A stretch of 36,673 nucleotides of DNA, taken from NCBI RefSeq assembly GCF_003334315.1, contig NZ_QOWR01000049.1, one strand, 5' to 3'. A model generated the notes under the pieces. It made no database searches and was not told the DNA's origin. It worked only from the letters and a program-made list of their open reading frames with translations. Made by a program: the position numbers and the translations under genes. This document shows positions 32,646 to 33,524 of the stretch, piece by piece; position 1 is the first letter of the stretch; each line of letters starts with the position of its first letter. The stretch is from Escherichia coli (GTDB lineage Bacteria > Pseudomonadota > Gammaproteobacteria > Enterobacterales > Enterobacteriaceae).

Positions 32646-33524
32646 TTACGCCAAATTTACAGAGAAGATTTCCTCGAGCATTGCCCCCGCCAGACGCTGC
32701 GCTGAACAGAGTCGTGGCATCCCCAGCGCGACAGTTTGCCAGCGTTGGGTCACTGACCAGCAAACGGGTTGTTTATCTGCCGTGGTCCACTTTCCCAGCC
32801 AACTTAAAAAATCAGCATGCTCCCCGCCCGTCGGAACGGTCGAAGAGGCAAACCACTGATGGTAATAGTGACGCGTGGTCGGTGCCGCATTGATACTCTC
32901 TGCCAGATGTTGTGTCGCTTTCTCGAGCAAATCACCCAGCAACAACGCCACCGCTTGCGGGCTTCCCAGACGGCAGGCATCGCCAAATGCCCCCCAGCGC
33001 AACTCCTCCAGAACGATAAAACAGCGCCCAGGCAACGACCAGGCGTTATACGCCCCAGCACGCCAGCGGGTAAAAATTTGCTCGCTCTGATCACCTGCCT
33101 GCACCAGTAGGCCTCGTTGCGTTAACGCCTTTTCCTTCCAGCGACAACGGGCTGAAAACCACTCATACAAGGCGGCAATTTGCTGGGGGAGCTCCGGGAA
33201 AGCAGAGTGCTGGCGGTGATCCATTTTTTGCAGCAGCGCCAGATGCTGCGCGATCTGCGTCAGTGCCAGATGACCGGGATCCAGCATCGACGCCAGTTTT
33301 TCCACCAATGTCAGACGCAGGCTAAGCGGCGCATTTAACATGCCGCCGTTCGTCCATGTCTGAAGCTGCACACGCGAAAGAAGTTCCTGCATCAGTCGTT
33401 CACGAAACTGCTGCTGATGGGCTTGTGGAAGGCGGGCATCATCACCCTGCGCCAGATCCACTAAAAAGCGGGGATAAACCGACTCCAGCACGCGACCGGG
33501 GCCGTCAAGTAACGTCTTGGTCAA
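32646..33524 (-). CDS. yjcZ: YjcZ, uncharacterised protein co-transcribed with crfC
   Basis: 292 aa ORF recognised as YjcZ; start overlaps the crfC stop by 4 nt. Confidence 0.88.
   Translation of the reverse strand: MTKTLLDGPGRVLESVYPRFLVDLAQGDDARLPQAHQQQFRERLMQELLSRVQLQTWTNGGMLNAPLSLRLTLVEKLASMLDPGHLALTQIAQHLALLQKMDHRQHSAFPELPQQIAALYEWFSARCRWKEKALTQRGLLVQAGDQSEQIFTRWRAGAYNAWSLPGRCFIVLEELRWGAFGDACRLGSPQAVALLLGDLLEKATQHLAESINAAPTTRHYYHQWFASSTVPTGGEHADFLSWLGKWTTADKQPVCWSVTQRWQTVALGMPRLCSAQRLAGAMLEEIFSVNLA

What the first reader, a model, noticed from the sequence alone, without database searches (positions are those of the whole stretch)
33521..33524. Recurrent 4-nt start/stop overlaps (ATGA) indicating translational coupling
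Stop and start codons overlap by 4 nt at dcuS/dcuR (12850-12853), eptA/basR (28934-28937) and crfC/yjcZ (33521-33524), consistent with coupled translation within these operons. The two melB fragments also overlap as GTGA, but that is a frameshift artefact rather than coupling.
Basis: seen in the sequence. Interest (0 to 1): 0.2.

Follow-up and report, generated by a model that had tools for sequence, protein, structure and literature searches.

The report
Ordinary 4-base gene overlaps in E. coli
Three neighbouring gene pairs in this E. coli region share four bases between the first gene's stop and the second gene's start, a very common and already catalogued arrangement; one junction was misread (TTGA, not ATGA), and only that pair (rdcA/rdcB) looks truly dependent on coupled translation.

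Summary
The window is the E. coli chromosome from cadC to yjdM, about 99.5% identical to K-12.

**Observation.** All three 4-nt stop/start overlaps exist and match RefSeq and K-12 annotation.
- dcuS/dcuR (12850-12853) and eptA/basR (28934-28937) read ATGA.
- The headline junction, crfC(rdcA)/yjcZ(rdcB) at 33521-33524 on the minus strand, reads TTGA. rdcB starts with TTG.

**Frequency.** The -4 "NTGA" spacing is the commonest gene spacing in prokaryotes. All three pairs are already listed at -4 in Huber et al. 2023. Three of 21 co-directional pairs in the window is not enriched over a K-12 sample of 12/154 (P=0.22).

**Coupling.**
- dcuR and basR each have a strong Shine-Dalgarno site.
- Published data show DcuR is at least 29-fold more abundant than DcuS.
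- basRS also has an internal promoter inside eptA, so coupling is at most a minor route for these two.
- rdcB has no Shine-Dalgarno site in any of 10 orthologous loci.
- Its -4 overlap is conserved (ATGA in six non-Escherichia genera and one unnamed relative, TTGA only in Escherichia).
- RdcA and RdcB bind each other. rdcA/rdcB is therefore the one good candidate for termination-reinitiation.

**melB.** The GTGA is a by-product of a 1-bp deletion in a T7 run.

**Verdict.** Known and low interest.

The parts
33521..33524 (-). rdcA(crfC/yjdA) stop TGA overlapping the rdcB(yjcZ) start TTG. The junction is TTGA, not ATGA.
   Evidence: Sequence read on both strands. Annotated this way in RefSeq and K-12. 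The position is homologous to ATGA in 7 orthologous loci outside Escherichia: six named genera and one unnamed relative.
33521..35749 (-). rdcA (crfC, yjdA), dynamin-like GTPase, 742 aa
   Evidence: ORF list. K-12 gene mapping at 99.9% identity. Annotation.
32646..33524 (-). rdcB (yjcZ), 292 aa, TTG start, no Shine-Dalgarno site upstream
   Evidence: ORF and annotation. Anti-SD duplex energy is -2.8 kcal/mol. An in-frame TGA lies 11 codons upstream with no other ATG/GTG/TTG in between. Codons 5-11 keep their amino acids while third positions vary across 11 loci.
12850..12853 (+). dcuS stop TGA overlapping the dcuR start ATG (ATGA)
12835..12841 (+). Shine-Dalgarno site of dcuR (GGAGAGG) inside the dcuS coding sequence, 8 nt before the ATG
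   Evidence: Anti-SD duplex energy is -8.2 kcal/mol.
28934..28937 (+). eptA stop TGA overlapping the basR start ATG (ATGA)
   Evidence: The same ATGA is present in Salmonella and Raoultella.
28920..28924 (+). Shine-Dalgarno site of basR (AGGAG) inside the eptA coding sequence, 9 nt before the ATG
   Evidence: Anti-SD duplex energy is -7.8 kcal/mol. Strong SD sites are also present in Salmonella (-7.4) and Raoultella (-7.8).
19064..19069 (-). T6 run in melB where K-12 has T7. The 1-bp deletion frameshifts melB.
   Evidence: Global alignment with K-12 melB. Sequence read. None of 4,137 matching complete E. coli records matches at 100%.
19030..19033 (-). Incidental GTGA: the premature TGA of the shifted melB frame plus the first start-like codon of the resumed frame

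Best explanation
These are three ordinary, already annotated -4 nt stop/start overlaps (NTGA) between co-directional genes of known E. coli operons: dcuSR, eptA-basRS and rdcAB. With this geometry, a ribosome terminating at the upstream UGA sits directly over the downstream start codon and can reinitiate there (termination-reinitiation). How much this matters differs by pair.

1. rdcA->rdcB. The junction is UUGA with no Shine-Dalgarno site. The -4 overlap is conserved across Enterobacteriaceae genera, and the two proteins bind each other. I infer that most RdcB synthesis comes from ribosomes that have just finished RdcA, which ties RdcB output to RdcA output at a ratio of 1 or less.
2. dcuS->dcuR and eptA->basR. 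The junction is AUGA preceded by a strong Shine-Dalgarno site embedded in the upstream gene. I infer that most DcuR and BasR is made by independent, SD-driven initiation. For basR this also happens on transcripts from an internal promoter. Reinitiation adds only a small share.

Shown here: the sequences, the annotation, conservation of the overlaps, the SD strengths, and the absence of unusual local RNA structure. Taken from papers: the RdcA-RdcB interaction, the DcuR:DcuS ratio, and the internal eptA promoter. Inferred: the share of reinitiation at each junction.
For: **Sequences and annotation**
- Junction sequences. Annotation with -4 overlaps in RefSeq and K-12.
- All three pairs are listed at -4 in the E. 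coli K-12 table of Huber et al. 2023: rdcA/rdcB 'complex yes', the other two 'not'.
- NTGA/-4 is the commonest spacing and the most efficient for coupling.

**rdcA/rdcB**
- rdcA stop and rdcB start overlap by 4 nt in 10 of 10 orthologous loci. Seven are outside Escherichia (Citrobacter x2, Enterobacter, Kosakonia, Superficieibacter, Phytobacter, Huaxiibacter, one unnamed) and all read ATGA. E. marmotae and an 87%-identity Escherichia lineage read TTGA.
- The second codon of rdcB always starts with A.
- SD energy is -2.8 kcal/mol in E. coli and -1.5 to -2.8 in the nine orthologous loci tested. dcuR and basR score -8.2 and -7.8.
- RdcA 'tightly interacted with RdcB' in two-hybrid assays, and both are needed to activate DgcE (PMC6510439).

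**dcuS/dcuR**
- DcuR is at least 29 times as abundant as DcuS (PMC9429925).
- The CitA/DcuS-CitB/DcuR COG pair has a typical spacing of about -3.4 across 423 species.

**eptA/basR**
- A constitutive promoter lies in the 3' end of eptA, and pmrAB still functions after a partial eptA deletion (PMC8129183).
- ATGA plus a strong SD is conserved in Salmonella and Raoultella.
Against: - No direct test of coupling exists for any of the three pairs in what I could reach. That means no premature-stop reporter assay, no synthesis rates from ribosome profiling, and no N-terminal proteomics.
- Lack of an SD does not prove dependence on reinitiation. In Huber 2019 the weak-SD -4 pair bioB/bioF was the one E. 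coli pair that initiated de novo and was not coupled, and removing the SD reduced reinitiation in 4 of 5 pairs. An SD-less TTG junction could therefore simply be a poorly translated gene.
- The DcuR:DcuS ratio is a steady-state protein ratio measured by two different methods. It is not a synthesis-rate ratio.
- The internal promoter within dcuS that I recall (Oyamada et al. 2007) could not be verified in the held library.
Confidence: 0.8

Rival explanations
1. All three junctions are tightly coupled by termination-reinitiation. Downstream translation depends on the upstream ribosome reaching the overlap in each operon.
For: -4 spacing is present in all three. 4 of 5 native E. coli -4 pairs tested by Huber 2019 were coupled, and SD sites inside the upstream gene usually help reinitiation. 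The overlaps are conserved in other genera.
Against: DcuR is at least 29-fold more abundant than DcuS, which is incompatible with one reinitiation per termination as the main source. basRS is expressed from an internal promoter within eptA, and pmrAB function survives a partial eptA deletion. Both downstream genes carry strong SD sites that can recruit free 30S subunits.
Confidence: 0.1
2. The overlaps have no translational role. They are neutral by-products of genome compaction and mutation (stop loss or start gain), and every downstream gene, including rdcB, is initiated independently.
For: bioB/bioF shows that a -4 pair with a weak SD can initiate de novo. The region around the rdcB start is not strongly structured: z = +0.55 against shuffles. 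An unstructured start region could allow SD-independent 30S binding.
Against: The rdcA/rdcB register stays exactly -4 in 10 of 10 orthologous loci, while the last 2-4 RdcA residues and the first RdcB residues vary freely. Genome-wide, -4 is far over-represented, and short-spacing pairs are 4.5-fold enriched for complex subunits in E. coli. RdcA and RdcB are such partners.
Confidence: 0.1
3. Coupling works by RNA unfolding. A stable structure hides the downstream start region until the upstream ribosome melts it, rather than the same ribosome reinitiating.
For: This is a classical mechanism for several E. coli and phage gene pairs.
Against: Folding of -60..+30 around each junction gives energies no better than dinucleotide shuffles: z = +0.19, -0.77 and +0.55. 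At -4 spacing a second ribosome cannot load while the terminating one occupies the site (review argument). Only local structure was tested, so long-range pairing is not excluded.
Confidence: 0.05

Closest known systems
-4 nt (NTGA) overlapping co-directional gene pairs with termination-reinitiation (Huber et al. 2019, PMC6728339; Huber et al. 2023, PMC10666635; review by Brown & Wade 2025, PMC12548453)
   Same: The geometry is identical: the upstream TGA shares TG with the downstream NTG. All three pairs appear at -4 in the K-12 pair table of Huber 2023. rdcA/rdcB also fits the enrichment for interacting partners.
   Different: rdcB uses TTG. [quoted passage not shown]
bioB/bioF of E. coli (-4 pair with a very weak SD, tested in Huber 2019)
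   Same: -4 overlap and a very weak SD upstream of the downstream gene, as for rdcB.
   Different: bioF was found to initiate de novo, not coupled. rdcB has not been tested. rdcB also has a weak TTG start codon.
trpB/trpA and other classical coupled pairs (Oppenheim & Yanofsky 1980, as cited)
   Same: [quoted passage not shown]
   Different: trpB/trpA overlap by 1 nt (TGATG, from my own knowledge). Coupling there was shown experimentally, whereas here it is inferred.
Two-component operons with short overlaps (for example CitA/CitB-type COG3290@COG4565, and phoP/phoQ at -1)
   Same: dcuS/dcuR belongs to the CitA/CitB-type pair, whose typical spacing is about -3.4 in 423 species. phoPQ is at -1 in K-12.
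   Different: Kinase and regulator are made in very unequal amounts (DcuR >= 29x DcuS). The overlap therefore does not set 1:1 stoichiometry.

Membership tests
-4 nt NTGA stop/start overlap of co-directional genes | The upstream stop TGA and the downstream start NTG share two bases, so the gene coordinates overlap by 4 nt. | tested here: met
   ATGA at 12850-12853 and at 28934-28937. TTGA at 33524-33521 on the minus strand.
-4 nt NTGA stop/start overlap of co-directional genes | Both reading frames are real genes with these boundaries. | tested here: met
   RefSeq and K-12 annotation. The rdcB start is supported by positional homology to ATG in 7 orthologous loci outside Escherichia, protein-level conservation of codons 5-11 with synonymous variation, and an in-frame stop 11 codons upstream. 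No N-terminal protein data.
-4 nt NTGA stop/start overlap of co-directional genes | The two genes are co-transcribed. | not tested
   Papers describe rdcA-rdcB as an operon (PMC6510439) and eptA-pmrAB as an operon with an extra internal promoter (PMC8129183). That dcuSR is an operon rests on my own knowledge.
Translational coupling by termination-reinitiation | Spacing lies within about -8 to +6 nt. | tested here: met
   -4 in all three pairs.
Translational coupling by termination-reinitiation | Downstream translation falls when upstream translation is stopped before the junction, at constant mRNA level. | not testable with these tools
   This needs reporter or premature-stop experiments as in Huber 2019. 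None was found for these pairs.
Translational coupling by termination-reinitiation | Downstream output does not exceed upstream output, if reinitiation is the main route. | tested here: not met
   For dcuS/dcuR, DcuR is at least 29x DcuS (PMC9429925). For eptA/basR, independent expression from internal promoter P2. No data found for rdcA/rdcB.
Translational coupling by termination-reinitiation | An SD motif lies inside the upstream gene. This is usual and often needed, but not universal. | tested here: inconclusive
   Present for dcuR (-8.2) and basR (-7.8 kcal/mol). Absent for rdcB (-2.8) and for the nine rdcB orthologous loci tested. Huber 2019 found the SD contribution ranges from essential to none.
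Coupling by unfolding of an inhibitory RNA structure | A stable structure sequesters the downstream start region. | tested here: not met
   Local folds of -60..+30 are no more stable than shuffles: z = +0.19, -0.77, +0.55. Long-range pairing was not tested.
Frameshifted pseudogene (melB) | An indel relative to intact orthologs breaks the frame. The fragments are not separate genes. | tested here: met
   A 1-bp deletion in a T7 run. Both halves translate to MelB in different frames. All matching complete genomes lack the deletion.

The most novel reading that the evidence does not exclude
In the genus Escherichia the rdcB start codon changed from ATG to TTG at a junction that lacks a Shine-Dalgarno site in every genus. 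This would make RdcB synthesis strictly dependent on, and sub-stoichiometric to, RdcA translation. It would be a lineage-specific retuning of the RdcA:RdcB ratio that feeds into DgcE-controlled c-di-GMP and biofilm signalling. The TTG state appears fixed: 0 of 5,403 E. coli records carry the ATGA version on the main haplotype, and 2,655 are exact for TTGA. TTGA is also present in four divergent E. coli strains, in E. marmotae and in an 87%-identity Escherichia lineage.
Probability: 0.3. Interest if true: 0.25.

Novelty: already known. Interest (0 to 1): 0.08.

Why it matters
It matters little beyond correct annotation. The -4 overlaps are textbook features and all three are already tabulated for K-12.

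The useful outcomes are corrections and a ranking:
- The headline junction is TTGA, not ATGA.
- An overlap alone does not show coupling. dcuR and basR are demonstrably made independently of their upstream genes to a large extent.
- rdcA/rdcB is the pair worth testing for SD-independent reinitiation at a non-AUG start, and for how the stoichiometry of a GTPase and its partner is set in c-di-GMP signalling.

Tried and rejected
**Expression data**
- Li et al. 2014 (synthesis rates) and Schmidt et al. 2016 (proteome) are not held in the library.
- The acid-stress ribosome-profiling paper's supplement is truncated and held only a basR row.
- I therefore have no RdcA:RdcB or EptA:BasR ratios.

**Background rate of -4 pairs**
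- Counting -4 entries by phrase search in the Huber 2023 table failed.
- I counted two table parts by eye instead: 5/78 and 7/76.

**Internal promoters**
- Consensus promoter scans of the 3' parts of eptA and dcuS found nothing on the sense strand and no excess over shuffles. This is uninformative: the published eptA P2 promoter was not detected either.
- Literature searches for an internal dcuS promoter found nothing usable. That point rests on my memory only and is not used as evidence.

**Leads that came to nothing**
- RdcB-like proteins of 77-84% identity (P0012, P0014-P0016) looked like intermediate lineages. They are mosaics of E. coli-like and Citrobacter- or Enterobacter-like halves from short metagenome contigs, most likely assembly chimeras, and were not used.
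- The RdcA length difference (742 aa in Escherichia, 780-784 elsewhere) suggested a different start. It is due to internal indels, and the N-termini align.
- The alternative rdcB start at GTG (codon 12) was rejected. That codon is ACG, GTA, TCG or CCG in other genera, and codons 5-11 are conserved as protein.

**Not run**
- I did not run the expensive genome contigs or metagenome-contig scans. Exact-protein look-ups gave enough loci.

Full report
**What the window is.** Mapping K-12 MG1655 genes onto the window shows it is the E. coli chromosome from the pheU side of cadC to yjdM. It lies in reverse orientation to K-12 and is 98.5-100% identical per gene. The gene order is cadC, cadBA, dtpC, lysU, ghoST, yjdJI, dcuSR, dcuB, fumB, yjdF, melBA, melR, adiA, adiY, adiC, eptA-basRS, pmrR, proP, rdcB, rdcA, yjdM.

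**Checking the observation.**
- The + strand reads cagATGAtc at 12850-12853, where the dcuS stop meets the dcuR start.
- It reads gtgaATGAaa at 28934-28937, where the eptA stop meets the basR start.
- At 33521-33524 the + strand reads tcaa. The coding (minus) strand therefore reads ...GAA CGA TAT TGA for rdcA, with TTG ACC AAG... for rdcB. The junction is TTGA, not ATGA.
- The ORF list, a RefSeq genome 100% identical over this stretch, and K-12 all place the rdcB start at this TTG and give a 4-nt overlap.
- The three junction regions are identical to K-12.
- The overlaps are therefore real, but the motif at the finding's own coordinates was misread.

**The melB remark.**
- Compared with K-12, the window's melB lacks one T in a T7 run (T6 at 19064-19069 on the minus strand).
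- The N-terminal part then runs into a TGA at 19030-19032. The rest of MelB continues in another frame.
- None of the 4,137 matching complete E. coli records is 100% identical over this stretch. It is either a private mutation or a homopolymer sequencing error.

**Is the recurrence more than chance?**
- The window holds 21 co-directional neighbour pairs, of which 3 are at -4.
- Huber et al. 2023 list 2,987 unidirectional pairs in K-12, of which 707 lie within -8..+6. They call -4 the commonest configuration.
- In two parts of their pair table I counted 5/78 and 7/76 pairs at -4, which is 7.8%. With that rate, P(>=3 of 21) is 0.22.
- The window is therefore typical of E. coli.
- The same table already lists rdcA/rdcB (-4, complex: yes), eptA/basR (-4, not) and dcuS/dcuR (-4, not).

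**rdcA/rdcB in detail: the start codon.**
- RdcB homologs occur in Escherichia, Citrobacter, Enterobacter, Kosakonia, Phytobacter, Huaxiibacter and Superficieibacter. They share the N-terminus M-[T/K/N]-x-x-L-L-[D/E]-G-P-G-R.
- I fetched ten orthologous loci. In every one the rdcA stop and rdcB start overlap by exactly 4 nt.
- The junction is ATGA in the 7 loci outside Escherichia (six named genera and one unnamed relative). It is TTGA in E. coli, E. marmotae and a further Escherichia-like lineage with 87% RdcB identity.
- In E. coli the TTG looks fixed. A 65-mer carrying ATGA has no exact match in 5,403 records, while the native 65-mer is exact in 2,655. Four divergent strains also carry TTGA.
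- The TTG is the true start by three arguments. It is homologous in position to ATG elsewhere. An in-frame TGA lies 11 codons upstream with no other canonical start in between. Codons 5-11 keep their amino acids while third positions vary.
- The second codon always begins with A, as the overlapping TGA requires.

**rdcA/rdcB in detail: how it is probably translated.**
- The predicted anti-SD pairing upstream of rdcB is -2.8 kcal/mol, among the weakest in the window. It is -1.5 to -2.8 in the nine orthologous loci tested.
- The last 2-4 residues of RdcA vary freely (ERY, EHT, EQP, DLP, ENS...), yet neither an SD nor a different register evolved.
- RdcA binds RdcB tightly, and both are needed to activate the diguanylate cyclase DgcE (PMC6510439).
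- Together these facts make reinitiation by the ribosome that has just finished RdcA the most likely way RdcB is made. This is an inference.
- The caveat is bioB/bioF, a weak-SD -4 pair that initiates de novo.

**dcuS/dcuR.**
- dcuR has a strong SD (GGAGAGG at 12835-12841, -8.2 kcal/mol) 8 nt before its ATG.
- Short overlaps are typical of the CitA/CitB-type kinase-regulator pair across 423 species.
- But DcuR exceeds DcuS by a factor of 29 or more in E. coli (PMC9429925). One reinitiation per dcuS termination can supply only a few percent of DcuR at most.
- Independent SD-driven initiation must dominate. Transcripts from an internal promoter may also contribute, but I recall that only from memory and could not verify it.

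**eptA/basR.**
- basR has AGGAG at 28920-28924, 9 nt before its ATG (-7.8 kcal/mol).
- ATGA plus a strong SD is conserved in Salmonella and Raoultella, even though the EptA C-terminus differs in Raoultella.
- A strain keeping only 120 nt and 420 nt of the eptA ends retains PmrAB function (PMC8129183).
- basR translation therefore does not need eptA translation.

**RNA structure.** Folding -60..+30 around each junction gives energies indistinguishable from shuffled controls: z = +0.19, -0.77 and +0.55. Nothing suggests a structure-unmasking type of coupling. Only local structure was examined.

**Comparison with what is known, and verdict.**
- The three sites are members of the well-described class of -4 NTGA overlaps. 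The geometric criteria are met.
- The functional criterion of coupling, dependence on upstream translation, cannot be tested with these tools.
- One corollary, downstream output not exceeding upstream output, is contradicted for dcuSR by published data.
- The finding is already known and ordinary.
- The only mildly new points are that the rdcB junction is TTGA and SD-less, that its -4 register is conserved across genera, and that the ATG-to-TTG change is specific to Escherichia.
- Interest is low.

Noticed in passing
window 1-333: K-12 homology starts only at window 311, inside the 3' end of tRNA-Phe pheU (ttcgattccgagtccggcacca at about 311-333). ARAGORN finds no tRNA in the window. Bases 119-340 match the end of a region next to a DUF4942-domain gene in many E. 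coli genomes. Bases 1-118 match other, multi-copy sequence, possibly an insertion-sequence end (unverified; I did not identify it). No complete genome covers 80% or more of this stretch. This looks like the boundary of a genomic island integrated at pheU, with a partial tRNA repeat.
   Followed up: partly
window 19064-19069 (minus strand): melB is frameshifted by loss of one T in a T7 run. No complete E. coli genome in the collection shares the deletion, so it is either a private pseudogene or a homopolymer sequencing error.
   Followed up: yes
window 30672-30837 (minus strand): Rfam STnc630 (178 bits) covers the pmrR small-protein gene (30679-30768). pmrR converges on basS and overlaps its 3' end (basS ends at 30703) by 25 nt. 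The pmrR/pmrB overlap is described in PMC8129183.
   Followed up: partly
window 36503-36673 (+ strand): Two tandem copies of Rfam naRNA4 (nucleoid-associated ncRNA, CssrE) lie downstream of yjdM. The second is cut by the window end. K-12 has a longer array, with copies spaced about 100 bp apart.
   Followed up: partly
window 29602-29612: basR and basS are separated by 9 nt (TAA...ATG). This falls in the +9..+12 class that Huber 2023 notes as a small E. coli-specific peak (203 pairs). The mechanical ORF list instead starts basS at a TTG at 29603, directly after the basR stop.
   Followed up: partly
proteins P0012, P0014, P0015, P0016 (RdcB search): Several metagenome-derived 'RdcB' proteins are mosaics: one half is nearly identical to E. 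coli and the other half is Citrobacter- or Enterobacter-like. They come from 1-2 kb contigs and are most likely assembly chimeras.
   Followed up: partly
L012 (E. coli strain DA33137), rdcB codon 2: One divergent E. coli strain has ATC (Ile) instead of ACC (Thr) as the second rdcB codon. The change keeps the A that the overlapping rdcA TGA stop needs.
   Followed up: no
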